Shown: piece after piece, positions 20,218 to 64,000 of the stretch
Position numbering within the stretch: position 1 is the first letter of the stretch
Layout: every line of letters begins with the position of its first letter
Program-made: the position numbers and the translations under genes
The notes under the pieces: model-generated
Databases searched by the model: none
What the model was told of the DNA's origin: nothing
What the model saw: the letters and a program-made list of their open reading frames with translations, nothing else
DNA from: Psammoneis japonica
Taxonomy: Eukaryota
DNA length: 64,000 nucleotides
Assembly: GCA_008632985.1 (NCBI GenBank)
Contig: QPGO01000296.1
Location: 1-64,000 of the forward strand
Reading direction: 5' to 3'

Positions 20218-20714
20218 GACTACAACAACATAAACCAGTGCAACAAGGCGCAGACTTGTTTCCAATGCTCTTTGGTTGCCGTCGAAATCACAACGTCACC
20301 GCTGCAAAAGAGTGGGGCATGTTTGCAGCGAATTTCGCCAATCACTCGCGAGCCACGCTGCGTTTATTGACTATATACAACGTAAGGTTATATTTCGATT
20401 CGAATCATCCACACTTTCATTCACCCTTAAGTAAATGTCCGTTGAAGATTTGTGTATATAGTAGTTCTATAAAAATATATAAAGTTATTTATGGTATCAC
20501 GGAGTGGCGCGCCATCGTGCGTTGCGGTTTTGATTTGCTTTTGTCTGAACATCACAGATCAAGCAGCAACGCTCTGAACGAGACAAGCACATGATGCCCC
20601 GACCCCGACCCCCGACCCAGACGATGCATTGCGCAAGATCACATGGTGCATTGCAGGCAAACAAACAGACTCCTTCTGCATCTGCAGGGGTGCTGGAACA
20701 TCAGAGCGTGTGCT

Positions 20715-21103
20715 GACGCGTTCCAGGTCTAGGTGGGACCTCGTACTACTGAACTGTGACATCGATAGTTTTTTGAATCTCGTCGTATGTCGCGCACGTA
20801 GAATTCTACGTGATTTTTTGATATTTTGTGTCATTTTACGGTACACTTATTGAGCGATCCGTCCAAAAACTTTTGACATTTTTTGTTACAGCGCGATTCT
20901 ATAATGTCTTAAAAATCGCGTAGGGCAGGTGCATTTGCAAAAACGTCGAGTGGTAAGAGGCATAATTGTACCACAAACTTGGCCGTTTATTTGATGTTGA
21001 AGATAAATATATTCATTAATTAAATTCTCGTACTACGGAGCTCGCACGTAGAATTCTACGGGCCAAATGTCACACGGAGTCCCACCTGGGGCTGGAACGC
21101 GTC
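20715..21103 (+). mobile_element. MITE family 1, copy A (389 bp, nearly unmutated)
   Basis: TIR GACGCGTTCCAGnnnnAGGTGGGAC; 4-bp TSD TGCT (20711-14 and 21104-07); internal palindrome CACGTAGAATTCTACGTG. Confidence 0.85.
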
Positions 21104-22500
21104 TGCTGCAGCAGTGGTCGGGGGGGCCGTGCCTTTCTCACGCAATGGTTTTTGGATGCGTGCTCCAGACGCAGGTGAGCCGGATGAAAAACGGACCTTG
21201 TTGTCACGAGGTTTGACTCAAGAAAATTGCAATTCATTGTTTTTTCAGGCAAAATGCATCTGTGTGCCTGTGCAGGAATGCACTGGCAGCTGACAAGCTC
21301 CAAAAGCAAGTTGCCAAAAAGCTTCGCCCTGGCCACAACGACAACGAAGTGCGGCACACAGCTTCCGCTTGTTCAGCCATCCATGATGATGTCATGGTCA
21401 ACCAACCCCAACAGTCAACAACAACGGAAGCACCAGGCATCTGTGTGGTGCCACAGGGAGGCACCCTGTGGACGTGCTCCAGCCGCACGTGACCCAAATC
21501 GTGCACAAAAACGACATTTGCGCGATTTTTGTGCGGTCTCTGACTTGCGAACGGTTTTTCACCACCAAAAGTATAGATTTGTTCAAATTCGAATGTTTTG
21601 CAACACCAAACAAGACTCGTGTGAGTGTTGCAAAATCATTGTCACAGCGCCATCAATGTTCTTCATTGCGCTGAACGAATCGCAACACAACGGATGATTT
21701 TCGGCGAAATTTCTGCCGTCATTTGGATGTTAACTAAATGTGTCTTCCTACAATGCTTCTTCGTAAATTTTCCACCTACAAAGAAATCTCAGCATTGAGG
21801 CTGCTGACGCATGATCAGTGTTGAGTTTGCCGAGGAAGTTTGTGATGCATGTCCCATGAGGACTTTAACACCCCACAAAAAACTGTTTAATTCTTCACAA
21901 TTTTTCATGCTCTAGATGCCCACAAAAGCCAATCCGCTTGAGCATTTTATGTGAAAATGCTCCATGCACCAACAGATGCACAATTTGTGTTCAAAATCGA
22001 TTGTCGTTTTGTGTGTCACCTGGGACTGGAACACGTCTGTGGTTGGTTGTTGAGCCACACCCCAAGAGACACAACTCAGGGCAAAGTTGTTTCCTCGGGG
22101 GTTGGGCAAAGATGAGTGGAGAGCTTTTCAATGTGTTCTTGTGGCAAACTCATGCTTGAAATCAGCCATCAGAGCTTCATTTCCCAGTGATGAAAATCTT
22201 GCAGAAGTGCGCAGAACAATTGTTTTTGTCAGACTCAACAAGAAGAAAAAACTTCATCTTAGAATCACCCTTTGTTTTGGCCATTTGCACTGTTGGAAAG
22301 AGCTTTTTCTCCACATTTCAGTCATGTGTTTGTTGCAAAAAGTTGAAAAAATGCATTGAGGCAATCACAGAACAAAGGTGTGAAGGCACAACCATTTGAT
22401 TTTTGGCAAAGATTTCACATGCTCGTGGCTGGTTGACGACAAGCCCACAACCCCCACACAACGCAAATCAGTGAATGACTTTGAGCCAAAGCAAGCTGAA

Positions 22501-22617
22501 GAATGGCCAACAAAATCCCCCAATTGAAGTTTCTGCTTCAGCACAAAGACAGCCAAATGGCCAACTCCCCCCCAACTGAAGTTTCCACTTTGGCACAAAG
22601 AAAGCCAAATGGCCAAC
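22501..22617. repeat. ~53-bp diverged tandem repeat (about 2 units)
   Basis: AATGGCCAAC recurs at 22502, 22556 and 22608 with similar spacers. Confidence 0.65.
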
Positions 22618-23247
22618 GTTGCAGAGTTTTTGGGCACAAGCAAAATCAAATTGGCAAAACAGCCAGGATGTCAAACATGAAATCACCACTCCATTTCTGC
22701 GCCAGCCAGGCAACTGCTGCAGCATTCAGACGCTCATTTCAAAGTGTCAACTGGTCTTCTCTCTCTTTGCTTTCAATGCTTGTGACAATTTTTCAGATCT
22801 CTGCGTGGGCACATCCAAAATGTGCAATGCACACCCTTTGCAACATGGACAAATGAGCCCATCTGGAATTTGCAGTCTCCTTTCAATCCACATGAGCACA
22901 TGCCAAAAACTTGTGGACAGAACAAAAGGCCCTTGAGCACACAAAATGAGAAGAGAGCAGATGGCACCAAACTTGTTTTGAACCTTGGGCTCTCAAGTGG
23001 CATCGTTTTGCTGCTCTGCAACTGGCCGGAAGCTTGAGTGTTTTTTTTGTGACTTGCAGCTTGAGGCTTGCTGGCACATGAGCACACGCAATGTTGCCTT
23101 TAGAGCCTGCTGCTTGCTGGAGCTGAGGAGATGTGGACAGCTGTCTGGGTGCCCAGGCTTTGTCCATCAGATGCTCAAACTCGCGGTTGTTTTCTCTTGT
23201 GCTGTGGCCACTTGGCTTCTTCCATCAAGAAAGTCCACAGCAGCCCA

Positions 23248-23487
23248 GACGCGTTCCAGGTCTAGGTGGGACCTCGCACTGCTGAACTGTGACATCGATA
23301 GTTTTTTGAATCACGTCGTATGTCGCGCACGTAGATTTCTACGTGATTTTTTTGACATTTTGTGTCATTTTACGGTACACTTATTGAGCGATCCGTCCAA
23401 CAACTTTTGACATTTTTTGTTACAGCGCGATTCTATAATGTCTTAAGAATCGCGTAGGGCAGGTGCATTTGCAAAAACGTCGAGTGG
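23248..23487 (+). mobile_element. MITE family 1, copy B (left part, runs into gap)
   Basis: Near-identical to 20715-20953. A related right TIR ends at 24327, after the gap. Confidence 0.85.
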
Positions 23488-23989
23488 NNNNNNNNNNNNN
23501 NNNNNNNNNNNNNNNNNNNNNNNNNNNNNNNNNNNNNNNNNNNNNNNNNNNNNNNNNNNNNNNNNNNNNNNNNNNNNNNNNNNNNNNNNNNNNNNNNNNN
23601 NNNNNNNNNNNNNNNNNNNNNNNNNNNNNNNNNNNNNNNNNNNNNNNNNNNNNNNNNNNNNNNNNNNNNNNNNNNNNNNNNNNNNNNNNNNNNNNNNNNN
23701 NNNNNNNNNNNNNNNNNNNNNNNNNNNNNNNNNNNNNNNNNNNNNNNNNNNNNNNNNNNNNNNNNNNNNNNNNNNNNNNNNNNNNNNNNNNNNNNNNNNN
23801 NNNNNNNNNNNNNNNNNNNNNNNNNNNNNNNNNNNNNNNNNNNNNNNNNNNNNNNNNNNNNNNNNNNNNNNNNNNNNNNNNNNNNNNNNNNNNNNNNNNN
23901 NNNNNNNNNNNNNNNNNNNNNNNNNNNNNNNNNNNNNNNNNNNNNNNNNNNNNNNNNNNNNNNNNNNNNNNNNNNNNNNNNNNNNNNNN
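23488..23989. other. Assembly gap
   Basis: N run. Confidence 1.
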
Positions 23990-25779
23990 GCGAGCTCCGC
24001 AGCAAAATCACACGGCAATTAAAATGTCAATGATCGCCAACAGAAAATGAGGCAATTTTGCGAACGCACAAACTCGCACATGATTGAAGCACATCATTTT
24101 TTGCTTGGCCAGTTGCATTCTTCAGACATTGAAGAATGCAGCTGGCGCATTGTTGTTTCTATGAATTTGTTGTGCAAAACGTCTGGGGCTTCGCAAAACA
24201 GCGAGTCTGGATAATTTTTTTTAAATGTCACACGTAGAAATCTACGCACAAAACATGCGACGGATGACAAAAATTGTTGTTGTCACACGTCAGTGCTGCG
24301 AGCTCCCACCCAGGGCTGGAATGCGTCCACAACGTTCGCCAAGCGACCACCAAGTCAACCTGCCATTTCTCACCAAATCGCTTTCGCACCCTCAGAATCA
24401 CTGTTTCAGACAGCCCCTTTGAAGTGTTGCATCCGCCATCATCTCATTGGGTGGAATGCTGTGAGGGGCCATCTCGAACAACAACATGGTTGAGATGTTA
24501 AAAACAATGTCGACACCTGACCAACAAACATGCCGTTTCGCACCATGTCGCTTTCGCACACTCAGGATCAATGTGAAAAGATGTGCATTTGATGCCATCA
24601 TGTCCGCAGTCATCGAATCAGGCGAGGGGCTCCGAGCTGCAATTTTTGGCAGCAGTTTCATCAAGCAATTTTGAAATGTCTGCGCATGACCTCATGTCTT
24701 GTCTGAACATCACACCGTCATCCAAATGGCACCTTCACGAGAAACAGTTTCGTTGCATGCTGGAAACAAAGACCACAGAGACTCAATCTATCAGCAAACA
24801 ACTTGCTGTCATGATGGAAGCTCTGAGAAAAGGATTTTTGGGCTCTTGGACTCTGAGATGTTGAGAGCGATCCATCCCGAGTTCACGACAAGCAACAAGC
24901 ATTCCAACACTGCGTTTTTTGGCCATGTCAACAGGAAGAGCACCGCCAAGAGAGGCATGTTGTGGAGAGCAATGGGTGGTTGGACATGGTTGGAGAAACA
25001 ACGGTGCTGCAGCAGCAGTCATGGCGTTTGATGAACAAGGACAAGCAGCGACCGAGGAGGACAAGGTTTGGACATGCAAGCGCTGGCATGACATTCACAA
25101 AGTGGGTGCAGACATTGTGTGTGATCCCAATGCATTGGCAATTGGCACCGGCATGGAGGAACACGCCAGCTGCAAGTCGACTTCATTGACGCAACAAAGA
25201 CCATCAAGGAACGGTGTCCGCACGCAAAGGTCATCGGTGGCAGTTTGAACCTTTTGTTTGGATTCCGAGGAGGAATGAAAATCCGCGAATCAGCTCATGC
25301 GGTGTTCTCAAATGATGCAATCCTTGAATCTGGAATGGATTTTGGTGTCATGAATGCGAAGGAAATGCTTGCTGTCAATGAATTGGATGACGACACGAGG
25401 GTGCCATGCGAGAATCTTGCACTCAACAAGACCGAGGATGAGACAGACGAGATGCCAAAGCAAACAGAGCACAAAAGAGCATGCATTGATGCCAGAAAGA
25501 AGGGCTTGCCTCTGCCTTGGAAGCCCCATGGCAAACCTGCAAACAAGCCATGCCTTGCACTCTCTTGTGACAAAGTCATCTCCAAACCTGCCATCGAACC
25601 GCCTCTGCTGATGGCTGCAAAAAATCATGTCCTGAACAGACAAGTGGAAAGAACAAAATGGCAGAGCTCGTTGTGCTTTGAAATGAGAACTTGGTTCCAC
25701 CACAAAATGGGCGTGCATTGGCACTTGGCGGATTTTTACACGGTGAAGTGCGGCAAAAGAGAGAAAGATGCTGTTGATC

Positions 25780-26170
25780 ATTCTGCAACTGGAGAGACAG
25801 CTGAAGTGGTGGATGCATTGTCAGAGATGTGATTGATTCTGCTTTTGATGTTGGTCACTTTTGGTGTCATGATGGCCGCAGTGTCGCTCCAAAACTGCAA
25901 ACGAGACATCAAGGATTTTCAGTCGTGATTGCATGGCGAAGCATGGCAAAAGCAACAAAAGCGCTGTTTCACGTTCTTTCCAACTGCAGAGTCAGGTGAC
26001 TTGGTGGATGCATTGTCAGAGACGCAAGAGCCTCTGCTTTTGATGTTGGCCAGCATTGGCATGACAAAAGTTGCAGCAACACTCCAAAGCTGCAAACGAG
26101 CAACGGCAGGATTTTCGAAAAATCGAAATGTTTTTCAGTTGTGATTGCATGGCAAAGCACGGGAAAATGG
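25780..26170. repeat. ~195-bp diverged direct duplication
   Basis: GGTGGATGCATTGTCAGAGA..CTGCTTTTGATGTTGG..CTGCAAACGAG..GTGATTGCATGGC occurs twice. Confidence 0.7.
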
Positions 26171-26341
26171 TGGTCACTTCATCAATCTCATTGACGACGA
26201 ATGCAAGGCAAATGAAAAAGTTGCCCCCCACTTTAAGACCGCCGCAACACCCTCCATCGACTGAGGTGACTCTCGTTTCGATCCAAGAAAATTCGTCTCT
26301 GCGTGATTTCTGCAGCGTCCCCTCCCACAGCTGCAGCCAAG

Positions 26342-26732
26342 GACGCGCTCCAGCCCTGGGTGGGACTCCGTGTGACATTGGGCCCGCAGAATTCTGCGTG
26401 TGAGCTCCGCGGCACGAGAATTTAATCAATGGATGTGTTTGTCTTCAACATCAAATGAATGGCCAAGTTTGTGGTGCAATTGTGCCTCTTGCCACTCAGC
26501 GTTTTTGCAACTTCGCCTGCCCTGCGCGATTCTCAAGACATTGTAGAATTGCGCTGCAACAAAAAATGTCAAAAGTTGTTGGACGGATCGCTCAACAAGT
26601 GCACCGTAAAATGACACAAAATGTCAAAAAAAATCACGTAGAAATCTGCGTGCGCGACATACGACGAGACTCAAAAAACTGTCGATGTCACAGTTCAGCA
26701 GTGCGAGGTCCCACCCAGACCTGGAACGCATC
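26342..26732 (-). mobile_element. MITE family 1, copy C (inverted, heavily TpA-converted)
   Basis: Full-length reverse-complement match to copy A; 4-bp TSD CAAG on both sides. Confidence 0.9.
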
Positions 26733-27404
26733 CAAGACTGTTTGCTGAGCTGCCAGCTGAGATGTCAAACTTGAGGTTGTGAGCTCCCAGAGCTGCAAGT
26801 CACAGGGCAGAGCATGTTTCTGGAACTGGCAGCACAATGCAGAGCCCTTCCTCAGCTTTCCGGGGTGCGCCCAGACCTCCAGAACACTGGCTGGCCTGTC
26901 CCAGCTCCAGGTGATCTGCTTTTCATTGTGCTGGATTTTCTGCACAGCCAGTTTTCAGCGCCAGACATTTTTGTCTCCACCCGGCAGAGCTCGCACTTTT
27001 TGGCTTTTTGTGAACATCAATTGTTTCGATGATGCAATGCACTCATGATGTCAATGCTCATCTGCAACAACTGAGGTGTGTGTTGCGATGCAGGAAGAAT
27101 CGTGTCAGTTGGCATTCAATGTTTTTCTGGCAATGTGTGGAACAATGCTGCTGACTTCTACGAACATGTGCCATCCACCCAACACCACCCAACACACGCA
27201 CCAACTGTGACGCAGCAGGCCCACACCACTGCTGTCGCCACTCCACAACCCCCTCTTTGCCCTTGTGGTCACATGGAACCGTCTGCTCCTTTTGTTTCAA
27301 AGGTGTGACATTGTCGCCACAATGCGGTTGCGGCTCTAAAGAGTTGCTGTGTCATTGCGGACAATGCCATCTCTTCACATTCTCTTGTTTTGAACTCGGC
27401 AAGG

Positions 27405-29055
27405 TCCTTGAAAGAACTGTTTGTTTTCCTTCCTTGAAACAACGTGTTTGATTCCTTGAAAAGACATGTTTGTTTTCCTTAAAATGACGTGTTTGTTTTC
27501 CATGAAACAACATGATTGTTTTCCTTGAAACGACGTGTTTGTCATGTTTGTTTTCCTTGAAAAGACGTGTTTGTTTTCCTTCCTTGAAACAACATGATTG
27601 TTTTCCTTGAAACAACATGTTTGTTTTCCTTGAAAAAACGTGTTTGTTTTCCTTGAAAAGACATGTTTGTTTTCTTTGCAATTTGAGTGGACATGTTTGT
27701 TTTCCTTGAAAGAACTTGTTTGTTTTCCTTCCTTGAAACAACACGTTTGTTTTCCTTAAAAAGACATGTTTGTTCTCCTTGAAACGACATGTTTGTTTTC
27801 CTTGAAAAGACGTGTTTGTTTTCCTTGAAAAGACACGCTTGTTTTCCTTGAAAAAACATGTTTGTTTCCATTGAAACCACTTGTTTGTTTTCCTTGAAAG
27901 AACATGTTTGTTTTCCTTGAAACAACATGGTTGCTTTCCTTGAAATGACGTGTTTGTTCATCTTGAAACAATGTGTTTGTTTTCCTTGAAATGACTTGTT
28001 TGTTTTCCTTGAAACAACATGTTTGTTTTCCTTCCTTGAAAAGGAAATGTTTGTTTTCCTTGAAACGACATGTTTGTTTTCCTTCAAACGACATGTTTGT
28101 TTTCCTTGAAATGACATGTTTGTTTTCCTTGAAACAACATGATTGTTTTCCTTGAAACAACATGTTTGTTGTCCTTGAAAGCACTTGTTTGTTTTCCTTC
28201 CTTGAAATGACACATTTCATTTTCTTTGAAAAGACATGTTTGTTTTCCTTGAAACGACATGTTTGTTTTCCTTGAAAGAACATGTTTGTTTTCCTTGAAA
28301 TGACGTGTTTGTTTTCCTTGAAAGAACATGTTTGTTTTCCTTGAAACAGCTTGTTTGTTTTCCTTGAAACGACATGTTTGTTTTCTTTGAAACAACATGT
28401 TTGTTTTCCCTGAAACAACATGTTTGTTTTCCTTGAAGAGACATGTTTGTTTTCCTTGCAATTTAAAAAGACATGTTTGTTTTCCTTGAAAGAACTTGTT
28501 TGTTTTCCTTCCTTGAAACAACACGTTTGTTTTCCTTGAAAAGACGTGTTTGTTTTCCTTGAAATGACGTGTTTGTTTTCCTTGAAATGACGTGTTTGTT
28601 TTCCTTCAAACAACATGTTTGTTTTCCTTGCAATTTAAAAAGACATGTTCGTTTTCCTTGAAAGAACTTGTTTGTTTTCCTTGAAACAACATGTTTGTTT
28701 CACTTGAAACAACATGTTTGTTTTCCTTGAAATGACATGTTTGTTTTCCTTGAAAAGACATGTTTCTTTTCCTTGAAACAATGTGTTTGTTTTTCTTGAA
28801 ACAACATGTTTGTTTTCTTTGAAACAACATGTTTGTTTTCCCTGAAACAACATGTTTGTTTTCCTTGAAGAGAATGTTTGTTTTCCTTGAAAAGATATGT
28901 TTGTTTTCCATGAAACTGCTTCATTGTTTTCCTTGAAACCACTTGTTTGTTTTTCTTGAAAGAACCTGTTTGCTTTCCTTGAAAAGTCACGCTTGCTTTC
29001 CTTGAAAAGACATGTTTGCTTTCCTTGAAAAGACATGTTTGTTTTCCTTGAAAAG
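27405..29055 (+). repeat. 23-bp satellite array 1 (~70 units), consensus CCTTGAAA[CA/TG/CG/AG]ACATGTTTGTTTT
   Basis: Tandem periodicity is directly visible; the ORF track cycles every 23 aa (3 units). Confidence 0.95.
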
Positions 29056-29127
29056 AAAAAAAAACCGTGCCCATGCACAGATTGCCACTGCAAAGTGCGC
29101 CAGATGGGGTTGTCACACTTTTGACCA

Positions 29128-30240: not shown

Positions 30241-30279
30241 AGAACCTCCCCCGGCTGGAACTCGCATCACCCCTCACTG

Positions 30280-31864: not shown

Positions 31865-32445
31865 ATGTCATTTCAAGGAAAACAAACATGTTGTTTCAAG
31901 GAAAACAAACGTGTTGTTTCATGGAAAACAAACGTGTTGTTTCAAGGAAAACAAACATGTCATTTCAAGGAAAACAAACATGTCATTTCAAGGAAAACAA
32001 ACATGTTGTTTCAAGGAAAACAAATGTGTTGTTTCGCGGAAAACAAACGTGTTGTTTCACAGAAAACAAACATGCCATTTCAAGAAAAACAAACATGTCA
32101 TTTCAAGGAAAAAAACATGTCATTTCAAGGAAACAAACGTGTCATTTCAAGGAAGGAAAACAAACAAGTTCTTTCAAGGAAAACAAAGATGTCTTTGTGA
32201 CGAAAACAAACATGTCTTTTCAAGGAAAACAAACATGTTGTTTTGAAGGAAAACAAATGAGTTCTTGCAAGGAAAACAAACAAGTTGTTGCAAACAAAAG
32301 AAACAAGTTGTTGCAAGGAAAACAAACATGTCTTTTCAAGGAAAACAAACATGTTGTTTCAAGGAAAACAAACATGTTGTTTCACGGAAAACAAACAAGT
32401 TGTTGCAAGGAAAACAAACATGTCGCTTCAAGGAAAACAAACATG
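31865..32445 (-). repeat. 23-bp satellite array 2 (~25 units, inverted orientation)
   Basis: AAAACAAACATGTxxTTTCAAGG units. Confidence 0.95.
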
Positions 32446-32559
32446 CAAAAAAGAAAAAAGAGAAAATCTGTTGGCAGCGCTGCCAGCGAAACATGTTGTT
32501 CACAAACACATGCCTCTGACACAAAGAACACTTTTCCACGATGCTGTGTTGCTGAGATT

Positions 32560-55199: not shown

Positions 55200-56980
55200 G
55201 TTGCAACTGACAGTTTAGATGGCCCATTGGGAGGGGGGGAAGAGCGGTGGGAGCTGCCAAAGCAACCAGAGGAAAGCTGATTCCATGCACAATTGGCAGA
55301 TGGGAGAAGAGCAGATGGGGAGGCAAGAGCGCAGGAGAAGGCATTGAAGGAAGCAGAGGAGTGTCACAGGAAGGAGGGGTTGAGCCAAGGGGGTTTGGGC
55401 TGGGAGCATGGGGAGGGAGAGGAGGTGCCAAAGAGGAGCCAGTGGAAGAAGCAGCCAACAAGACCACCCAGGTGATCAATGGTTGAGGGAAGCAGATGTG
55501 TTCCACTGGCACTGAGGAATTGGATGGCAAGAGAGCCATCAGAGGAAGAGGTTGAGGGGCCTCAAAACTTGGACCTTGCACTTGCACAGCGTGCCTCAGT
55601 CAAAAGAGAAGATGAGGGGGAGGCAGACCAGGTGGAGGGCGAGGGGGGGCTTTGGGGACAGTGACGTTGATGGCAATGTGTTGATGCTGAGAAGGAATGG
55701 CAAGGGAAGCAGGGGGAGGGATGGCAATTCCTGCATCAGCTGGACAGAGAATGGGCCAATGCAGCAGAAGGTTTGCAGGTTTGAGGTGGACGTAGGTGGA
55801 GGAATGACAGAGCTTGGACAGGGGGGGCAAGAGTTTGTGCAAGGATGAAAACAGTGTCCCGTGTGCCATTGGAGAGCTTGGACTTGTCATTGCACTTGCA
55901 CATGAAGGTGTGGTCACCGCAGGCATCAAGGGAGGTGTGGCCACAGGGACAAGGAGAGTCAATGAGGGAGGAGGGAAGTGCTGGAAGATGCAGCTTGCGT
56001 TGGATGGCTGTGGTGCACTCATCAGAGGAGAGGCGGGAAGAGGCAAATCAGGAGGAGAGGTGGTGAAGCGGCAGGCTGGCAAGGGGCAATGGGAGGGAAT
56101 GGAGAGCAACTTGGATGGCAGGAGGAGCATCAGCAAGAGTGGCATGATGGTGTGTTGTTGGTGGGCATGATGAAGGTGGCAAGCAAGTCCAGGGAGCCTC
56201 ATTGACTTGACCAAGGTGGGAAGATTTGGAGCAGCCAATGAGGAATCAGAAGAGAGCACAGAGGCAAAGCAGCGAAAGAGAGTGTGAAGGCACAGGTTGG
56301 AGTGGGAGTTGTTCCAGGAAGAGAGAGAGAGAGAGAGAGAGATGGAAGCAGTGCAGGAGCTCAAGGCTGTCCCCAGAAGGGAGCTGTGCACCGTGACAAG
56401 TGAAGCGGAAGGAGAGCAGAAGAGAGATGAGGAAGGAGGGGCTGGCGGCAGCAGCAGGAACACACAGGCCCAAGCCACACCAACGGAGGCAGGGAGAAAG
56501 GCAATGGCCAGGGAGTGGGGAGGTGGAGAATCAGAGTGGGCAGAGGCGCAGTGAAGGAAGTGATGGATGAGGTCCAGAGGAATGGGTCAGGCGGGTTGTC
56601 AGGGTCAAAGTTGCAGTGGAAGTCGGTCCAAAGGAGGTGGGCAGAAGAAGGCACAAAGCAGTGTTTGAAAAGTTGAGCTTGAGTTTGCTTGTCACGTGGG
56701 CAAGGCAGGAGACCGTCAACCTCAGCAGAGAGGGAGGAAGAGACATCAGAGAGGAAGAGGAGTTTTGGCAAAAGCACAGGAGCCAAGAGGCTGTCCGAGG
56801 AAGTGGACAACCAGAAGTGAGCTCGGGGTTGTAGGAGGGGTCAACAGAAGGGTTCAGGAAGGCAAGAGCATTGCACAGGGAGGAGGCATTAGATTGGGAG
56901 AGAGAAGAAAGTGGGCTGGTGCCGCTGATGGAAATGAGGATCTTGTTGTCAGGGTGTCTTCATGGGCATGAGCACCCGGA
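55200..56980 (-). mobile_element. 5'-truncated non-LTR retrotransposon with restriction-like endonuclease (CRE-like)
   Basis: Minus strand gives DKQTQAQLFKHC, the Zn knuckle CPCGHTSLDACGDHTFMC..NGTRD and (R)PADAGI..IAINVT. Confidence 0.7.
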
Positions 56981-57189
56981 ACCAAGATGGCCCAAAAAGC
57001 CAAGCCAATTTTTGAGTTGACATGTGGCTAATCTTCACCATGAAATCTGGGACGGTTTGCCACTTTCAAACAGATGACAAAGATGTAGCATGGTGGCTTT
57101 TGCAACAATGCAAATGAACAATGCTTTGCTGGAGGCTGGTTTTGACAGTCTGGATGGCATGGCTGATGCCCTGCTTGATCATTCCGGTG

Positions 57190-57365
57190 GCTTCAAAGAT
57201 GCAACGACAGGCTCTGCGAGAACTGGGCCTTGAAAATGGCTCTTTCACACAGCAAGAGCTCAAGAAAGCCTGCCGTGCACGAAGCCTTGAAACACATCCA
57301 GACAAGGGCGGCTCACACGAAGCCTTCATTTGTGTTGCCCTAGCTTGCAAATTGCTCTCTGGTTC
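57190..57365 (+). pseudogene. J-domain (DnaJ) fragment, Tyr-converted
   Basis: LRELGL..ELKKACRARSLETHPDKGGSHEAF..VALACKLL, i.e. KKAYR and AY changed to Cys. Confidence 0.75.
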
Positions 57366-57583
57366 AGGCACTCACAAGTTCCAAAGCAACGAGCGTCTGT
57401 GGGAAAGTGGCCTGAATTCTGGGATTCGTCTGCACTTTCAGTGATTAAAAGCTGCAATTGCAATGCAACAATCAATCAGCAACTTTGCACCAAAAGTTGA
57501 GAGGTGACAATCGACACGTTAGAAAGACCATGAGCAGTTTTTATGAGCAGATTCAGCTGCCATCTAAAAGAAACGCGAAGTTG

Positions 57584-58368
57584 GGCTTGGTCTGCAGGTG
57601 AACCAAGCCGGATCGGATCGCCGGATCGACTCCTTCACAACCCATTAAAATGTTAGTCCATCGAGTCAAAAAAGTCGATCCGGGGCCTTTGTGGGACTGA
57701 TCCGCCATCTCGGATCGGATGTCGTGTCGAATTTGGAAGATTCCGTGCCGTCATCATGACAATGGCGCAACATCACCCGATTGTGACACAGGGCGGCATG
57801 AGATTCAGCCATGAGGGCACAGAACTTCCTCAGCATTGCAGCCTGAGTCTTTCCATGCTTGAAATGGAGATGAAAAGGTCGCGTGGCTGTGAAACAGCTT
57901 GTCAAACCGATGATGCCATAAAGATTTGTTGGAGAAACATTGAACAAGCAAAACAACAAGTGTTCATTGTGCAACTCGAAATTTCAATGCAAAAACATGG
58001 TGTCAGTTTCTCAACTGCAAAAGTGATGGCTTTTTCTTCCTTGTTGTTGGTGCAAACACTGAGTGACAATGATGCTCAATGATGTGGTCAAGCAAGCATG
58101 TAAAGCAGCAACAAAAGTGCAGTTCTGTCATCATGTTGTCTTGTCATGACAAGATGTGAAGCATCATGGCCACACTTGTTGTTGTTCGCTTTGTCAGTGC
58201 TTTGTTGTTCTTGGGAGTTTGGAATCTTGAAACTTGTGTCATTTTGCGACTCATCAAAATGTCGAATCCGATCTGTGATCCAATCCGATTCCACCTGTCG
58301 ACTGACAGAACTCTGACGTGATCCGATCCATTGATCCGACCCGGCACGGTTCACCTGTAGACTGAGCC
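57584..58368. mobile_element. Tourist/PIF-type MITE (785 bp) with GATCGG-rich subterminal motifs
   Basis: TIR GGCT(TG/CA)GTCT(G/A)CAGGTGAACC..GCCGG.TCGGATC; flanks TTG (left) and TTA (right). Confidence 0.8.
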
Positions 58369-58371
58369 TTA

Positions 58372-58621
58372 GACACGCGCGAATCTGAGAACAAACATCG
58401 CATTCGTGACTCGGGTTCCGCGGGATTCGAGACTGAGTGTCACACACGGATTTGAATCATGGATCTGAATCAACCAATCAGGTTGAGTTTTCTTGATTCT
58501 GACTGCTGTTGCTTGTGGGGAGGAATTGCCCTTCATGCTCATCAATTCATGACCAAAGGACATGACTCGTGGAGGTTCGATGTTGTTGCACAAAACATGC
58601 AAATGTGGATGTGTTGTCACA
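58372..58621 (-). repeat. Probable 3' LTR of Copia 2 (left limit uncertain)
   Basis: Minus-strand PPT GAAGGGAG is followed by TGTGACA, as in Copia 1. Confidence 0.5.
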
Positions 58622-61600
58622 CTCCCTTCAACAACATTGGGTGGAATGATGACTCAAAAACGTCTCACCACTTAAGAAGTGACTTCCTGTGCTTGACGAA
58701 GAGGTTTTGTGGCAGAGGTTTGGCGAAAATGTCTGCAATCTGACTCGCCGCATCAATTGGTGGGATTGACATGAGACCCTTGCGAACATGATCTTTAAAG
58801 TGGTGGAGCATGAGGTTGAAGTGCTTTGTCCGAGGATGCATCTCAGGCAACCTGGCAATCTCCAGTGCTCCAGAATTGTCTTCAAATGCCTTGCAGTGCA
58901 TGACAGGTGTCTTGGAAGGGACATTGTGACCATGACTCATGAGTTCTTGAACAAGGTTCATGATCGGAATGGCACTGCGAAGACTTTCCAAAAGAGTGAC
59001 AAATTCAGCCTCGGCAGTGCTGAGAGTGATCAGGGTCTGCAGCTTGAATGTCCAGACAATGGGACATCCGGCACAAGCAATGACAAACCCAGTTCTTGAT
59101 TTGGAAGTGCCGATGTCATCAGGTGCAGTCAGTTTGTTCCAATTGCCCGCGAAGTCCGCGTCAGCATGAACTTCAAGGGACTTGTCTGTTGAGGGCTGTG
59201 GAATGACACCTTCATTTCTGGTTTCGCAAAGGTGCTTGCAGAGCCACAGTGCGGCCTCACCATGAGAAACCTTGGGATCAGATGAAAAACGTGCGATCTG
59301 ATGCACTGCGCAAGCGATGTCTGGGCGAGTGCTCTTCTCCAGAAAATTGAGCTTGCCGACAATGGAGCGGTGGTGAAAGCTCCCTTTGAAGCTTGGCTCA
59401 CTCATGTGCCTGTGGAGAATCTTGGAGGATGGAGCCGGTGTTGACTTGTTGGGTGCTCTTTCAGGTGAGTTCGCCATCTCCAGCATCTGATTGACAAGAT
59501 GCGGTTGCACAAGTTTCATTCTGCCATCAGGCAGTGTTTCAACGTTGATGCCGAGACAATCATCCAGAGCACCCTGATCATCAACATCAAAATTTGCATC
59601 TCTGACATCTTGTGTGGCTTTGACAACTGCAGTGTTGTCTGGCAATGCAAAGATGCCATCATCCACACAACACACAAAAATCACATTGTCACGGTGACAG
59701 AGGCACTCGTCGACTGCCGATTGCATGAAGCCAATCCGCAGCAAGCCATCATGTGAGTGTTCTTGCCATGCCCTGCCTGCTTGTTTCTGTCCATGTAAAT
59801 TCTTCAGCAATTTCAGAACATGAGTCTTGCCATTGCCACATTTTCTTTCAACTCCTGCAGGCAAATCCACACACATGTCATGTTCGGCATCAGCCTGTGG
59901 ATGTGCCAATGCGAAGTCAACTTGGCGTGTGTGCCACTTCTTGAGGATGGCTGTGATCAACACAAGTCGGATGGTGAACCAGAAGACGATGGAAGAGCAG
60001 GTCTGGAAGCAGTTGACTGCATGCTCTTGCTTTCCACCATGCACATTGAGTCGGGACTTCCATTTGTAAATGGCACAAGTTTTGATGTCTCTCTTGCACT
60101 TCATTGACCATGTGGAGGGAAGAATGTCAACATCATCAGGTGCGTCTTCACGTGGCATGAGTGCCCAATGCTTCTTCTCAACATGATCATTGACCTCTTT
60201 GATGCAGGCCTTGACAAACTCGTCTCGGTCAGGTTCGCACATGGCTTGATCAAAGCACACGAATGAAGCAGGTGAGTCCATGTTGTCCTGTAACTTGCAA
60301 TCATCTTCATGCATGGCATCACAACACTCCTCTGCCTCTGCTGCACAGGAGACAATGCCTTGAGCCCTCTGGATCTGGCTTTCGCGCATCCTTTCGGTCG
60401 GGCGTCGTTGTTGGCTGGACCCACTGACACTGGGCTGACCCATGGCATGCTGTGGCTCAGGAGGCAATTCGTCATCATCTGGAGGTACACACAGCTCCTC
60501 TTCTTCAGGTTGTGATGTGTCAGCATCAAAAGAGTCATCCACAGTGGGATCAGAATGCTGCAGCTGAGGTGGGACATCCGGACCCGGCTCAGGCAGTTCT
60601 GGTGGAGCAACAGGTTGCTCCCTTGTTCCTTTTGATCTCCCAAAGATGTTGAGTGACTGTTTGGTTTTGCTTGCTTGAAGCCTGTGATGCCTTGCCATTG
60701 TGCAAATGTTGATGGATTGCCAGCAGAAGGTCAGACCGTCTCAAAAAAGTTGTCAAACTGTGCGTGGAACTGCGGCGATGCGAGTCCGGTTTGTAAATTC
60801 AAAACCAAGGCAACTGATCCTGCGTGTCTTGTTGAAGGTCCCAGATTGATTCCCAACCTTGCTCTTGGATCCCATTTAGGTGCTCCACCTCCTCCTTGCA
60901 ACCAGTTGTGCAAAGCGTAGACTGGGCATCCAAAAGCATGGTGCTGCTTGAGGTCAGGCTGAACCTTGACCGACGTGAAACGTTCCAAAGGAGAGGAACC
61001 ATCCTCATGGTCAGGCAAGTGGTTCCTGATCTTGTTCGAGTTTCTTAAAGCGCTTGGCCACAAATTTGTCTCTGTTGCAGATGGCCATCTAACCTTTGCA
61101 TGTAAGAGCTGTTTTCTTGCTTGCTCTTGCAGGTCCCATGTTCGTTTTTCCGTGATGCCATTTTGAAAGTGAGCATTGACGCCACAGTGCGAGATTGTCT
61201 GTTGTTGTTTCTCCACGTCTTGGATGAATGCATTGTCAGCAAATCTCCCGTTGTTGGCATGATGGTGTTTGATGCAAACATGGACTCGTCGTGCAAAAGC
61301 CTTGAAGGAATGTTTGGCCTCAAGTGTCTCGTCCGAGGTGAGTCCCCTCTGTGAGTGTGTGCATCCCAATCCGCTACAGTGATCAACAAATGTTGTTGCT
61401 GCTCAATGCCTTTGCTTCGCAGGTCTCCCTTTGAGTTGAGGGATCAGTCCAGGAGTCAGACTTTCAAGCTGGTCAACCGATGCAGCCTCTCCAGGCAAGG
61501 TTGCCAAGTGGATGTGTCTGTTCCACTTGGACTTGGAGCACCATGGTCGTTTTGTCATGGCACCATGCAGGCAGCCGGCGCACTTTGGGTTGTGCACCTT

Positions 61601-64000
61601 TGTAAGGCGTCTCGGCAGGATGCCTGGGGTGGCCATGAGCTTGATCATTTTGAATGACATGTGGCCTGGGCGGTGATGCCAACACAACAATTCACCTTGG
61701 TTGTCAGCAGCGGCTAAGGCATCATCATCTGGTGTGATGTTGATGGGTTCCGGTGGGTCCTCCTGAACCTCCGGTGTCACAAGATCCATCAGGTTCTCCT
61801 CGTCAGAGTCAGAGCAACTCGCTTCATCAGTTGGCTTGAATGACTGAGGTGCACTCACATCAGTGTGGTTGTGTGCGTCTTGCATCTCGGAAGGACGTGT
61901 CTTGGAAGGACTTCTGAAGATGTCTTGTTCAATTGCAGTCTCAGCATCGTTTGCAATGCTTTCGTTGTCAGGTGGCATGACATGAGCCTGACAGGCCATG
62001 TGCTCAACATTTTCGATGTGAGTCTGTTGTTCAACAGTGGCTGCAAAGGTCCGGCATTTGTTGGAACCAGGTGCGGAGTGCATCTTGGCGACATTGGAGT
62101 CATTGGACCATGGAATCAAGCGATGGCACTTTCTCTGATCCCACACTGGCATGAGTCCATCGTCTCTAGTCCAGGACACGGTTCCGTGAGGCTCAGGTGT
62201 GTGGTTGCCGGCTTGTTGACTCCATTGTTGGGGGCAAAGGAGACAGTGAGGCAAGTCCAGTGCGAGCAGTGCATCTCGAATCTTGATGTTGTGCACTCAT
62301 CCCATGTCATCCTCAATTGGCCACTGTGCTGTTCCTTCTCCCTTGGCAGGCAAACAACCTTTGACACCAAGCACCACCTCACTCATCTTTCAAACAGGAC
62401 CAATGAAGTGTGTCTCGTTGTTCGACATGGTGCAGGAAGAGTGGGAGTCAACACCCATCATGAATGAGTCCGAGTTGCAAGTGGGTTGCATCTGCTGAGG
62501 ACGGCATGGAGTGGTGGCACTGCAAGCGGAGACCATCTTGTAGCGCACAAGGACGTAGTGAGCCTTCTTGTTGGCCACACTCTGGAGCAGTGACCTGGCT
62601 GCGTTGACGTGTGATGCTGTGCGCAGCACCTCGTCGTTGGCCGTTGCTGGCAAGTCTGAACTGGTGGTGTGCTCATGTCAACTGGGATGTGTGAAAGAAT
62701 CCACTCACCCAGTGTCATCACAGCATCACACAGCAACTTACACTGGCTTGAAGGAAGGGACAGCATCACGAATGAGAGGATGACCCAAATCGGGGCCGCA
62801 AACTTCATGACGCCAGAGACTGATGTCAGGAGCAGTGACGCAACAGCGGCCATCTGTGGGGACAGGAGGAGCGTCATCAGAGCTGATTTGATGGCTGGTC
62901 ACTCTTGATCCACTTCGTTTGGAATGGCAGAAATGGCACTAGCGAAGGCGACCTTCTTGTCGGATGTCTCGTTGGAGGATGAAAGTTGTTGCTTGCGGAG
63001 TCTGCACCCAAACTTTCCCGGATCATCAGGCAAATGAATGACCCAAGCCATGTGGCAAGTGCACCAGTGACAGTTGCAATTGTTGACATGCTTGTGAAAG
63101 TGCTGATGTCCATTGACTGTCTTCTTAGGTGCACCATCCTCAGGCGGAACTTTCTTCCAGGCTTCATCAGCCTTCCACTTCTGGCGTGGAGCAGTCTTGG
63201 TCTTCCTTGACTTTGTGCTTCTCTCCTTTCCTGAACCTGCCTTGGCCTTCAGAGCCTTGGACAGCTGAAGGTTCTGGTCCTTGATTGAGCCCACCTCAGC
63301 AGTGAGTGCAACGATCTGCTCTTCAGCTGGTGAGAGTGCTCCCCACTTCTCATCTTGCTTGAGGTTAGTGTGCTTGTTGAGCACCAGTGACATGATTTGT
63401 GTTGGCATGAAATTCTCACCATTGTTGCACCTGTCCTTGTGTGGGGTGATGCATTTGACAAATGCTTCGTCAGCAGCAGCGGCGCATCCTTTAAAAAGAT
63501 TCACAATGAGGTCGTCGCACTGCTCGCCCCTTGCTGGCAGCCCATCAACGTTGAGCTTGGCACACTTGTTGAACTCTTCCATGTCCAAGTTGACAGCTGC
63601 CATGTGTGCATCCAGGCTTGAAAGGTTCTCACAGAAGTGGTTCGTGGTTGAACGGGTGTCGACGACAGCTTTCTGAGTGAGCAGCTTGAAGAACAGTGTG
63701 CCAATTTGGTTTCCATTGATCGTGCACAAATCAATCTCATCAAGTGTCCTGTCCCTTGCTTCTTCTGTCAAGGACTGAGAGATGGCTTCAGCCATTTGCA
63801 CATTGTTCTGTGCTTGCCATGTTGGAAGATCGGCAAAAGTGGTGGCATGAGCTCTCACGTCCTGAAGAGCAAGCAATCCACACTCGGAAATAAGATCTCA
63901 AGGAGCTCCATTCATGTCGGGAATGGCAAGCATGTCTCCTGTCCCTGTTTTCCATCCTGCTTTGGCAGCTCGTTGACTGAGCATCTCACAAAAGCGTTTG
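58622..64000 (-). mobile_element. Copia LTR retrotransposon 2, internal region (gag >63876-62899, protease ~62470, integrase ~61700-60731, RT-RH 60698-58665); runs off the window
   Basis: Homologous to Copia 1: GVDSHSS, HHRPGH..CAGC, SVDQLES, NLHGQKQAG, CVDD, ADADFAG, EDN and ADIFAK. Confidence 0.92.

What the first reader, a model, noticed from the sequence alone, without database searches (positions are those of the whole stretch)
20498..64000. Repeat-associated TpA->TpG/CpA hypermutation: a reverse-RIP-like process
Seen: beyond ~20.5 kb TA dinucleotides almost vanish while CA and TG are abundant; the neighbouring genes have normal TA. Conserved tyrosines become Cys (TAY->TGY) or His (TAY->CAY): YVDD->CVDD, NLYG->NLHG, DIAYAV->DIACAV, YADD->CADD, GHSYG->GHSHG, KKAYR->KKACR. 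The 677-aa RT-RH ORF has a single Tyr. This fixes the polarity as TA loss. Established: fungal RIP goes the other way (CpA->TpA), and 5mC deamination cannot remove TA. Inference: a dsDNA-level, context-specific A:T->G:C mutator acts on repeats or heterochromatin and inactivates TEs, possibly as a genome defence. Candidates are a TpA-specific adenine deaminase, turnover of modified adenine, or Pol eta-type error-prone repair (WA hotspots). I do not know of a description of this system but cannot check the literature.
Basis: partly seen in the sequence, partly recalled or inferred. Interest (0 to 1): 0.97.

Follow-up and report, generated by a model that had tools for sequence, protein, structure and literature searches.

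The report
TpA-erasing hypermutation of diatom repeats
In this diatom-like genome, dead transposons, satellites and gene fragments have had almost every TA step rewritten to TG or CA after insertion, the mark of a targeted mutator so far reported only in one unrelated alga.

Summary
In 1-20.5 kb (genes), TA observed/expected is 0.61. In 37.9 kb of repeat-rich DNA it is 0.06 (155 TA), CA/TG rises to 1.65 and CpG falls to 0.43.

TA was lost, not CA/TG gained. Two Copia RT ORFs keep 3 of 32 conserved tyrosines, and 26 became Cys or His. One MITE copy keeps 29 TA, while a copy inside the block keeps 5. The two LTRs of one Copia differ mainly at TA versus TG/CA sites, so the change came after integration, on DNA. 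Both strands are hit. Adenines outside TA are spared.

New here is a flank rule: T-A-Y is hit hardest, while TTAA and CTAA/TTAG largely survive.

Young insertions (a MITE, a Harbinger) and neighbouring genes are untouched. Independent read contigs carry the same TA-poor sequence.

Best named homologs are diatom proteins. The same TpA->TpG/CpA signature was reported in 2026 from mutation-accumulation lines of the chlorarachniophyte Bigelowiella natans (bioRxiv 10.64898/2026.01.13.699255). I therefore file this as a new member of a very recently described kind. The enzyme is unknown. A DNA adenine deaminase is the leading guess, and it is an inference.

The parts
12910..14017 (.). Isolated TA-poor island (3 TA in 1.1 kb, CpG o/e about 0.2) between normal genes. 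It is a repeat fragment whose 3' part matches 55132-55437 at 63% identity.
   Evidence: spanned by one X1 contig
20496..35287 (.). TA-poor block, part 1. It holds degraded unannotatable DNA, MITE copies and satellite arrays. N gaps lie at 23488-23989 and 33444-33828.
20715..21123 (+). MITE copy A (about 400 bp with terminal inverted repeats). It is unmutated, with 29 TA. An X1 contig joins 20715 to 21120 and lacks it, so it is a young or polymorphic insertion.
23248..23487 (+). MITE copy B, cut off by an N gap. It is 96.7% identical to copy A and largely unmutated (13 TA in 241 bp).
26319..26732 (-). MITE copy C, hypermutated. It has 5 TA left. 25 of its 43 differences from copy A are TA->TG/CA, and CpG is 25 against 28.
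27405..29056 (.). 23-bp satellite array with a TA-free consensus. Related arrays lie at 31865-32445 (inverted) and 33829-34924.
35288..37279 (-). Normal-TA island inside the block (TA o/e 0.76-0.88). It holds a Harbinger/PIF-type DDE_Tnp_4 ORF at 35408-36013 and is probably a young, not yet mutated insertion.
38842..64000 (.). TA-poor block, part 2. It runs to the end of the window.
44316..49702 (+). Copia element 1. LTRs lie at 44316-44673 and 49345-49702, with TG..CA ends and a 5-bp target duplication CCACT. It has a gag-pre-integrase ORF at 45871-46614 and an RVT_2 ORF at 47068-48834. Of 15 conserved Tyr, 13 are now Cys or His.
50376..51413 (+). Fragment of a host-type gene: the C-terminal catalytic domain of a chloroplast glutamyl endopeptidase (S9) homolog. 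All 10 Tyr of the plant protein in the aligned part are replaced (4 C, 3 H, 2 F, 1 Q).
57118..57441 (+). Weak DnaJ (J-domain) remnant carrying KKACR where J domains have KKAYR. The KKAYR motif is recalled, not taken from a call.
   Evidence: PF00226 E 1.1e-5, 25.9 bits, below the 27.8 cut-off
58615..63897 (-). Copia element 2, running toward the window end with no LTR pair seen. The RT-RH ORF 58665-60740 has 1 Tyr in 691 aa. An SH3_retrovirus ORF lies at 60731-61402 and a gag-pre-integrase ORF at 61403-62296. Of 17 conserved Tyr, 16 are changed (8 C, 5 H, 2 F, 1 L).

Best explanation
A targeted mutator acts on nuclear DNA after insertion. It converts the A:T pair of 5'-TA-3' steps to G:C on either strand (TA->TG or TA->CA). 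It acts in transposons, satellites and gene fragments that the cell treats as repeat, foreign or silent DNA, and it leaves adjacent genes and very young insertions untouched. It runs nearly to saturation and is about ten times faster per site than the CpG decay (5mC deamination) seen in the same DNA.

It has a flank preference. The adenine hit is mostly followed by a pyrimidine (T-A-Y, equivalent to R-T-A on the other strand). Y-TA-R sites, above all TTAA and CTAA/TTAG, largely survive.

The consequences are loss of Tyr codons, of TAA and TAG stops, and of ATA, GTA and TTA codons, which kills TE genes.

Shown here: the signature, its polarity, its post-integration timing, its strand symmetry, its sharp limits and its flank rule.

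Inferred: it is the same kind of process as the TpA hypermutation measured in Bigelowiella natans mutation-accumulation lines. The chemistry is enzymatic deamination of adenine to hypoxanthine in DNA by a TadA/ADAT-like or other deaminase, recruited by chromatin state or RNA guides. I give the deaminase step about 45% on its own. The confidence figure of 0.7 is for the targeted post-insertion TpA mutator as a whole, not for the enzyme.
For: Polarity:
- At columns where at least 70% of 60 homologs share a residue, copia2 keeps 1 of 17 Tyr (8 C, 5 H, 2 F, 1 L) and copia1 keeps 2 of 15 (7 C, 6 H). Other conserved residues are kept at 226 of 281 and 190 of 226 columns.
- Homologs have a median of about 3.5% Tyr; the window copies have 0.1-0.5%.
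- The S9 fragment keeps 0 of 10 aligned Tyr.
- MITE copy A has 29 TA and copy C has 5. At 12 TA-vs-TG/CA columns where copy B is present, B sides with A at 9 and with C at 3.

Post-integration and DNA level:
- The Copia1 LTRs show 22 differences. Nine are TA vs TG/CA, 2 sites are TG vs CA, 4 are CpG and 5 are other.
- A DNA transposon (the MITE), a satellite and a gene fragment are also affected.

Both strands: Y->C 15 and Y->H 11; MITE A>G 10 and T>C 15.

Specificity:
- AA, AT, AC and AG o/e are nearly unchanged.
- In the MITE, 25 events fall on the 58 A/T bases inside TA steps, against 7 A:T>G:C changes elsewhere.

Flank rule:
- Trinucleotides left, relative to the gene region: TAT 1.2%, TAC 7%, TAG 17%, TAA 23%.
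- NTAN survivors: ATAC 1 vs 136, TTAA 60 vs 54.
- MITE hits by +1 base: C 12/19, T 8/14, A 3/14, G 2/11 (Fisher p 0.003).
- Tyr codons preceded by Y give 13 Cys: 4 His; preceded by R they give 2: 7 (p 0.014).

Limits: the boundaries are resolved to within about 50 bp.

Not intrinsic to the TE family: 78 metagenomic Copia loci have TA o/e 0.35-0.98, and 1 of 1,400 1-kb windows falls below 0.25.

Precedent: the B. natans preprint reports 230 of 231 mutations in two viral regions as A->G/T->C, all of these on TpA.
Against: - No mutation was watched happening in this organism, and no enzyme is known. The whole genome is not held, so the proteome could not be screened.
- The NTAN and trinucleotide baseline assumes the repeats once had the gene region's composition.
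- Polarised events are few: 25 in the MITE, 32 Tyr columns that two related elements partly share, and one LTR pair.
- The MITE also shows 18 non-TA differences, so the spectrum is not exclusive.
- CpG decay also produces TG/CA and blurs product counts.
- Known adenine deaminases do not obviously match a T-A-Y rule. From recall, not tested: ADAR prefers a 3' G, eukaryotic ADAT substrates have G, A or C after A34, and only bacterial TadA's UAC fits.
- The read contigs may come from the same sample as the assembly.
Confidence: 0.7

Rival explanations
1. The base attacked is thymine, not adenine. A TET/JBP-like oxygenase or another T-modifying enzyme marks T in R-T-A steps of silent DNA (5hmU/5fU-type products). 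The modified T mispairs with G, or is repaired wrongly, giving T->C. On the other strand this reads as A->G.
For: The data cannot tell which base of the pair is attacked, because the flank rule T-A-Y is identical to R-T-A on the other strand. From recall, not tested: 5hmU in dinoflagellates and base J in kinetoplastids favour T followed by A, and 5-formyluracil pairs with G.
Against: No evidence here for such an enzyme or such a base. From recall, glycosylase-mediated repair of oxidised T would be expected to give transversions as well. The TA-linked changes seen here are transitions (25 of 25 in the MITE as classified; Tyr became C or H in 26 of 29 changed columns).
Confidence: 0.15
2. There is no dedicated enzyme. 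The signature comes from error-prone repair or replication of heterochromatin, for example by a Y-family polymerase that misinserts opposite T at TA steps.
For: From recall, Pol eta errors concentrate at WA motifs and give A->G. The affected DNA looks like methylated, silent chromatin (CpG o/e 0.43).
Against: AA, the other half of WA, is not depleted (o/e 1.26 vs 1.14). Lys, Asn, Glu and Gln codons are conserved. Near-saturation (TAT 1.2% left) with sharp edges within about 50 bp is hard to get from a passive repair bias. In B. natans the process switches on in some lines only.
Confidence: 0.08
3. The changes come from ADAR-like or ADAT-like editing of TE transcripts, fixed in the genome by reverse transcription and re-integration.
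For: From recall, RNA adenosine deaminases prefer a 5' U. The best annotated victims are LTR retrotransposons.
Against: The two LTRs of one integrated element differ at TA sites, so the changes came after integration. A DNA transposon (the MITE), a satellite and gene fragments are hit. Both strands are hit about equally. An RT with CVDD and no Tyr could not have copied itself.
Confidence: 0.02
4. The TA poverty is an inherited composition of these elements (a TA-poor donor, or selection against TA), or an assembly or sequencing artefact.
For: None beyond the bare composition.
Against: Conserved Tyr, Ile and Val codons are destroyed. Unmutated and mutated copies of one MITE coexist. Related Copia loci elsewhere have normal TA. 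Independent contigs of reads agree with the window, and normal genes sit on the same contigs.
Confidence: 0.02

Closest known systems
TpA hypermutation of integrated viral DNA in Bigelowiella natans (Mettrop et al., bioRxiv 10.64898/2026.01.13.699255; abstract, Results and Discussion read)
   Same: The signature is the same: A:T->G:C only at TpA, giving TpG or CpA depending on strand. It is confined to foreign or TE-like DNA next to normal genes. TpA-poor, CpA+TpG-rich clusters and RT/DDE coding sequences occur. The bias runs toward GC, against the usual AT bias.
   Different: The host here is a diatom-like stramenopile, not a rhizarian. The victims are Copia elements, a MITE, satellites and host-gene fragments rather than NCLDV and virophage inserts. 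Depletion is near saturation (TA o/e 0.06 over 38 kb, against Rho 0.45 for the NCLDV region there). A flank rule (T-A-Y hit, Y-TA-R spared) and a co-occurring CpG decay are seen here; a term search of that text found no mention of CpG, trinucleotides or diatoms. There, mutations were observed de novo; here they are only inferred from the end state.
Repeat-induced point mutation (RIP) of Neurospora and other fungi
   Same: It is hypermutation by transitions of repeated or selfish DNA. It is dinucleotide-specific, acts on DNA of integrated copies, kills TE genes and leaves a compositional scar with sharp limits.
   Different: The direction is opposite. RIP turns CpA/TpG into TpA (C->T) and enriches TA and AT content. 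Here TA is destroyed and CA/TG created. Dependence on duplication, a sexual phase and RID-type methyltransferases is unknown here.
5-methylcytosine deamination at CpG in methylated diatom TEs (DNMT5a-dependent CG methylation in Phaeodactylum; PMC9998398, passages read)
   Same: It operates in the same DNA (CpG o/e 0.43) and yields the same products, TpG/CpA. CpG-poor Copia loci are common in metagenomes.
   Different: It cannot remove TA. It is slower here: the MITE copy lost 24 of 29 TA but only 3 of 28 CpG. Several metagenomic Copia loci have CpG o/e 0.2-0.45 with normal TA, so the two processes are separable.
Adenosine deaminases on polynucleotides (TadA/ADAT2-3, ADAR) and TadA-derived adenine base editors
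   Same: A->I read as G. From recall, the edited A is preceded by U/T (U33-A34 in tRNA; ADAR's 5' U preference), and TadA's natural site is U-A-C.
   Different: They act on RNA (base editors act on ssDNA in an R-loop). No natural enzyme is known to deaminate A in chromosomal dsDNA at TpA. ADAR's 3' G preference is the opposite of the T-A-Y rule here. No candidate protein could be examined.

Membership tests
TpA->TpG/CpA hypermutation of foreign DNA (B. natans type) | Changes are A:T->G:C transitions located on TpA | tested here: met
   MITE: 25 of 43 differences are TA->TG/CA. Conserved Tyr became Cys or His in 26 of 29 changed columns. 9 of 22 LTR differences are TA vs TG/CA, plus 2 TG-vs-CA sites.
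TpA->TpG/CpA hypermutation of foreign DNA (B. natans type) | Both products occur (TpG and CpA), meaning both strands are hit | tested here: met
   Y->C 15 and Y->H 11. MITE A>G 10 and T>C 15. CA and TG o/e are both 1.65.
TpA->TpG/CpA hypermutation of foreign DNA (B. natans type) | Confined to foreign, TE-derived or silent regions, with the rest of the genome normal | tested here: met
   Genes in 1-20.5 kb have TA o/e 0.61, repeats 0.06, and the limits are within about 50 bp. This covers one 64-kb window only.
TpA->TpG/CpA hypermutation of foreign DNA (B. natans type) | De novo mutation rate in the region is orders of magnitude above background, measured in lines | not testable with these tools
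   This needs mutation-accumulation lines or pedigrees of this organism. The only figure here is an end-state ratio: 24 of 29 TA sites changed against about 5% of other sites in one MITE copy.
Fungal RIP | C->T at CpA (or another CpN), raising TpA and AT content | tested here: not met
   TA is lost, CA/TG is gained, and G+C is unchanged at 0.483 vs 0.485. Polarity was fixed by homologs and sister copies.
Fungal RIP | Triggered by sequence duplication, in a premeiotic stage, through RID/DIM-2-type enzymes | not testable with these tools
   No genome or crosses are available. A high-copy MITE family has unmutated members (depth of tens of thousands in X1; copies A and B), so copy number alone does not trigger it at once.
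CpG decay by 5mC deamination | Loss of CpG with gain of TpG/CpA | tested here: met
   CpG o/e is 0.43 against 0.99. There are 4 CpG-type differences between the LTRs. This is a second process in the same DNA and does not explain the TA loss.
RNA editing (ADAR/ADAT) fixed by retrotransposition | Changes arise before integration, only in retro-copied sequence, on the transcribed strand | tested here: not met
   LTR-LTR differences; the MITE, satellite and gene fragment are affected; the strands are hit symmetrically.
Pol eta-type WA-motif mutagenesis | A mutated after either A or T (WA) | tested here: not met
   AA o/e is 1.26 in TA-poor DNA against 1.14. Conserved Lys is kept at 16 of 17 and 10 of 10 columns.

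The most novel reading that the evidence does not exclude
Diatoms, and perhaps the wider SAR group shared with Bigelowiella, may possess a dedicated genome-defence system. Its effector would be a natural DNA adenine deaminase with T-A-Y specificity, working on chromosomal double-stranded DNA and directed to transposons, satellites and integrated viruses by a transcript- or chromatin-based guide. In that case it would be a functional mirror image of fungal RIP and a natural counterpart of engineered adenine base editors.

One possible trace of transcript guidance: the 5' LTR of Copia1 keeps 15 TA, against 6 in the 3' LTR and 4.3 per kb in the interior.
Probability: 0.25. Interest if true: 0.92.

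Novelty: new member of a known kind. Interest (0 to 1): 0.74.

Why it matters
A mutator that erases TA steps from selfish DNA is the reverse of RIP and runs against the near-universal GC->AT mutation bias. Until a 2026 preprint on one chlorarachniophyte, nothing like it was on record in the library searched.

Finding the same scar at saturation in a diatom-like stramenopile has several consequences:
- It suggests the system is older or more widespread than one alga.
- It gives it TE, satellite and pseudogene targets.
- It adds a testable sequence rule (T-A-Y hit, Y-TA-R spared) that any candidate enzyme must reproduce.

If the effector is a DNA adenine deaminase, it would be a natural enzyme of a type that base-editing technology had to evolve artificially.

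There are practical points too:
- TA loss removes TAA and TAG stops. Such regions fill with long spurious ORFs: 120 ORFs of at least 110 aa lie beyond 20.4 kb, and nearly all lack a family.
- It strips Tyr from TE proteins, which can mislead gene callers and homology searches.
- TA o/e becomes a simple genome-wide marker for silenced DNA in such organisms.

Tried and rejected
- Whole-genome analysis: no genome is held for this window. Genome-wide TA profiles and a deaminase screen were therefore impossible.
- Earlier findings of this scan: nothing for this genome, this sequence or these words. The word search 'TpA hypermutation' returned only phage and bacterial items unrelated to this process.
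- Literature: seven answered searches (one search failed on a term's syntax) found only the B. natans preprint for TpA-specific A:T->G:C hypermutation. Nothing was found for diatoms. The SPLASH preprint (PMC9258296) holds 'diatom' and 'hypermutation' in unrelated passages.
- Taxon from the protein atlas: the PPDK-like ORF returned only bacterial clusters, which is uninformative.
- RNA: no RNA holder is listed for the stretch. X2 contigs, which look spliced, have no cover in the TA-poor parts. I draw no conclusion on expression.
- Pfam on 101 ORFs of the TA-poor block added only DDE_Tnp_4, one gag-pre-integrase and the S9 hit already known. The 'CADD' site lies in an ORF without any family.
- Ice-binding 'LbR_Ice_bind' hits are translations of the 23-bp satellite and are rejected as artefacts.
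- Search for the same scar in environmental relatives: 78 metagenomic Copia loci, none strongly TA-poor. The set is biased toward intact elements.
Full report
**1. The observation**

The window has three N gaps (23488-23989, 33444-33828, 37280-37643) and is otherwise clean.

In 2-kb and 500-bp bins, TA observed/expected is 0.5-0.8 up to about 20.5 kb. It drops to 0.00-0.15 over most of 22-35 kb and 39-64 kb. Bins with 5 or fewer TA number 68 of 74 in those stretches, against 2 of 41 in 1-20500. Those 2 bins are a separate TA-poor island at 12910-14017.

Pooled figures:

| | Bases | TA count | TA o/e | CpG o/e | CA and TG o/e | G+C |
|---|---|---|---|---|---|---|
| Normal parts | 19,376 | 787 | 0.61 | 0.99 | 1.12 | 0.485 |
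| TA-poor parts | 37,876 | 155 | 0.06 | 0.43 | 1.65 | 0.483 |

Other dinucleotides move little (AT 0.93 to 0.81, AA/TT 1.14 to 1.26). At the gene region's ratio about 1,570 TA would be expected in the TA-poor parts, so the deficit is tenfold.

**2. What the DNA is**

The first 20 kb holds ordinary genes: a PPDK_N-domain protein, a GST with a WW domain and an HMG-box protein.

The GST's best named relative is from the diatom Seminavis robusta, at 57% identity. Other ochrophytes and a haptophyte reach 39-42%. Named relatives of the Copia proteins are all from diatoms: Epithemia, Fragilaria, Chaetoceros and Cyclotella. I therefore take the host to be a diatom or a close relative. It is not Bigelowiella.

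The TA-poor DNA holds:
- two Copia elements (RVT_2, gag-pre-integrase, SH3_retrovirus). One is complete at 44316-49702, with 358-bp LTRs, TG..CA ends and a CCACT target duplication;
- a roughly 400-bp MITE in three copies;
- three arrays of a 23-bp satellite;
- the C-terminal domain of a chloroplast-type glutamyl endopeptidase (S9; PDB 10eq, E 4.6e-75);
- a weak J-domain remnant;
- much DNA with no recognisable family: 101 ORFs were scanned.

Two stretches inside the block have normal TA. One is MITE copies A and B. The other is 35288-37279, with a Harbinger-type DDE_Tnp_4 ORF rich in Tyr.

**3. Polarity**

I aligned the two RT-RH ORFs with 60 homologs. I left out P0121 because it is itself Tyr-poor. 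Columns counted are those where at least 70% of at least 45 homologs agree.

- copia2 keeps 1 of 17 Tyr (8 Cys, 5 His, 2 Phe, 1 Leu).
- copia1 keeps 2 of 15 Tyr (7 Cys, 6 His).
- All other conserved residues together are kept at 226 of 281 and 190 of 226 columns.
- The replacing codons are TGY and CAY.
- Further changes fit TA loss: Ile->Met (ATG), Ile->Thr (ACA), Val->Ala (GCA), Leu->Ser (TCA).
- The two elements differ at several of these columns (C vs H, or Y kept in one), so the hits were independent.

The S9 fragment keeps none of the 10 Tyr of the plant enzyme in the aligned part (4 C, 3 H, 2 F, 1 Q). The Ser, Asp and His of the catalytic motifs are still readable.

At the DNA level, MITE copy A has 29 TA, and copy C, inside the block, has 5. 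At 12 TA-versus-TG/CA columns where copy B is present, B has TA like A at 9 and TG/CA like C at 3. TA is therefore ancestral.

**4. Timing, substrate and strands**

The two LTRs of Copia1, identical at integration, now differ at 22 of 359 positions:
- 9 are TA in one LTR against TG or CA in the other;
- 2 sites are TG against CA, meaning independent hits on one ancestral YpR step;
- 4 are CpG against TpG/CpA;
- 5 are other.

The process thus works on integrated DNA. It also hits a DNA transposon, a satellite and gene fragments. This excludes RNA editing carried over by reverse transcription.

Both strands are hit: Tyr->Cys 15 against Tyr->His 11, and in the MITE A>G 10 against T>C 15.

The rate is high. 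In MITE copy C, 24 of 29 TA sites are gone but only 3 of 28 CpG. Of 43 differences between A and C, 25 are TA->TG/CA, 5 are CpG transitions, 7 are other A:T>G:C, 1 is a non-CpG G>A and 5 are transversions.

**5. A flank rule**

Surviving TA are not a random sample.

| Trinucleotide | Left, relative to the gene region |
|---|---|
| TAT/ATA | 1.2% |
| TAC/GTA | 7% |
| TAG/CTA | 17% |
| TAA/TTA | 23% |

Both strands were counted, in twice as much TA-poor DNA as gene-region DNA.

| Tetranucleotide context | Counts, TA-poor DNA against the gene region |
|---|---|
| ATAC/GTAT | 1 against 136 |
| ATAT | 2 against 106 |
| GTAC | 4 against 108 |
| CTAA/TTAG | 47 against 45 |
| TTAA | 60 against 54 |

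This baseline assumes the repeats once resembled the gene region. Two tests free of that assumption agree:
- In the MITE, the adenine that changed (read on its own strand) was followed by C in 12 of 19 available cases, T in 8 of 14, A in 3 of 14 and G in 2 of 11. Pyrimidine against purine gives 20/33 against 5/25, Fisher p 0.003.
- At Tyr codons (TAY), the coding-strand A always has a pyrimidine after it. The opposite-strand A has one only if the preceding base is a purine. As predicted, codons preceded by a pyrimidine became Cys 13: His 4, and those preceded by a purine became Cys 2: His 7 (p 0.014).

The target is best written T-A-Y, or equally R-T-A if thymine is the base attacked. The sequence cannot tell which. 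The surviving TA of the Copia1 LTRs are almost all TTAG, CTAA, CTAC or CTAG, which fits this rule.

**6. Limits and targeting**

Edges are sharp. At the island, normal TA spacing ends at 12908 and resumes at 14018. At the block it ends at 20495. Flanking genes are not touched.

Being a repeat is not enough to be hit:
- The MITE family is extremely abundant, with summed contig depth in the tens of thousands against about 56 for single-copy DNA.
- Even so, copy A is unmutated. It is also missing from an X1 contig that joins 20715 to 21120, so it is a recent or polymorphic insertion.

The Harbinger island is likewise intact. Either the process needs time, or it is episodic as in B. natans, or it needs a silencing mark that young insertions lack.

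Conversely, 22040-23178 is TA-poor at single-copy depth. Present-day copy number does not define the target either.

**7. Not an artefact, and not the TE family's own composition**

X1 contigs reproduce the island and the 22-23 kb stretch with few differences. They may derive from the same sample as the assembly.

One difference inside the island is a TA (contig) against CA (window) polymorphism at 13425, in a TTAG context.

Seventy-eight metagenomic loci encoding related Copia proteins have TA o/e 0.35-0.98. Only 1 of 1,400 1-kb windows is below 0.25. That set favours intact elements. Several of those loci have CpG o/e 0.2-0.45 with normal TA, so CpG decay is common in such elements and separable from TA loss.

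Among the 240 database homologs listed, two carry the same scar. Both lie on long contigs of unknown organisms.

| Protein | Role | Tyr columns |
|---|---|---|
| P0121 | scarred | 13 C, 2 H, 1 F, 10 kept |
| P0242 | scarred | 11 C, 5 H, 3 other, 4 kept |
| P0241 | nearest clean relative | 16 of 18 kept |
| P0243 | nearest clean relative | 19 of 21 kept |

**8. Comparison with what is known**

Full-text searches turned up one description of this signature, the preprint by Mettrop et al. (10.64898/2026.01.13.699255). I read the abstract, Results and Discussion.

In B. natans mutation-accumulation lines:
- 231 of 302 nuclear mutations fell in two integrated viral regions;
- 230 of those were A->G or T->C, all on TpA;
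- rates were about 1,000 times background, and only in some lines;
- TpA-poor coding sequences were enriched for RT and DDE domains;
- an ADAT2-like deaminase was proposed.

A term search of that text found no mention of diatoms, CpG or trinucleotide context.

The present locus matches every sequence-level feature of that process, in a different lineage and at saturation. It adds TE, satellite and pseudogene targets, the flank rule and the link with CpG decay.

It is the reverse of fungal RIP.

CG methylation of diatom TEs by DNMT5a is documented (PMC9998398, passages read). It is the ordinary explanation for the CpG part.

**9. Mechanism**

The following are shown:
- a post-integration, DNA-level, strand-symmetric change of A:T to G:C;
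- its preference for TpA with a T-A-Y flank;
- its restriction to repeat or foreign DNA.

The following are inferred:
- It is enzymatic and targeted. This rests on saturation, sharp edges and the B. natans precedent.
- The chemistry is adenine deamination to hypoxanthine (about 45%).

The rivals are modification of thymine in R-T-A (about 15%) and error-prone repair (about 8%). The AA and AT data argue against a WA-type polymerase and against an ApT-directed adenine methylation route.

One post hoc hint on targeting: all 9 TA-versus-TG/CA LTR differences keep TA in the 5' LTR (binomial p 0.004). TA density is 41.8 per kb in the 5' LTR, 4.3 in the interior and 16.7 in the 3' LTR. This would fit guidance by the element's transcript. 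It rests on a single element.

**10. Verdict**

It is not categorically new, because of the 2026 preprint. It is a new member of that kind, in a second major lineage, with added anatomy.

Noticed in passing
44316-44673 vs 49345-49702: The 5' LTR of Copia1 keeps 15 TA and the 3' LTR 6; the interior has 4.3 TA per kb. All 9 TA-vs-TG/CA differences keep TA in the 5' LTR (p 0.004, one element, post hoc). This may be a sign that the untranscribed promoter part is spared.
   Followed up: partly
20715-21123: MITE copy A is absent from an X1 contig that joins 20715 directly to 21120, so it is an insertion polymorphism or a very recent insertion. The MITE family has summed contig depth in the tens of thousands.
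   Followed up: partly
proteins P0121 and P0242 (database hits, not in the window): Two Copia polyproteins on 66-kb and 47-kb contigs of unknown organisms show the same Tyr->Cys/His loss, only partly advanced. The same process exists in at least these other assemblies, or in other parts of the same species.
   Followed up: partly
20400-64000: TA loss removes TAA and TAG stops. Six-frame counts for 39-64 kb are TAA 105, TAG 90, TGA 1313, against 298, 349 and 745 in 1-20 kb. There are 120 ORFs of at least 110 aa, nearly all without a family. This is a trap for gene callers.
   Followed up: yes
27405-29056, 31865-32445, 33829-34924: Three arrays of a 23-bp satellite (81-85% matches). Their translations gave spurious 'ice-binding beta roll' Pfam hits.
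   Followed up: yes
8001-20301: Contigs of run X2 skip 11408-11499, 14923-15483 and 19572-19644 as if spliced. X2 may be RNA although it is listed as 'DNA?', and these gaps would mark introns of the neighbouring genes.
   Followed up: no
22040-23178: The single-copy TA-poor stretch differs from the X1 contigs at 10 places in 1.1 kb, against about 1 per 0.3-1.5 kb in the genes. Two of them are CpG/TpG or CpG/CpA polymorphisms. Diversity seems raised in the block.
   Followed up: partly
20428-20495: A run of 14 TA in 68 bp (TA-rich microsatellite-like stretch) sits exactly at the edge of the TA-poor block.
   Followed up: no
16001-16500: A TA-rich bin (52 TA, o/e 1.30, G+C 0.43) lies upstream of the HMG-box gene, and X1 depth is raised there (table 2).
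   Followed up: no
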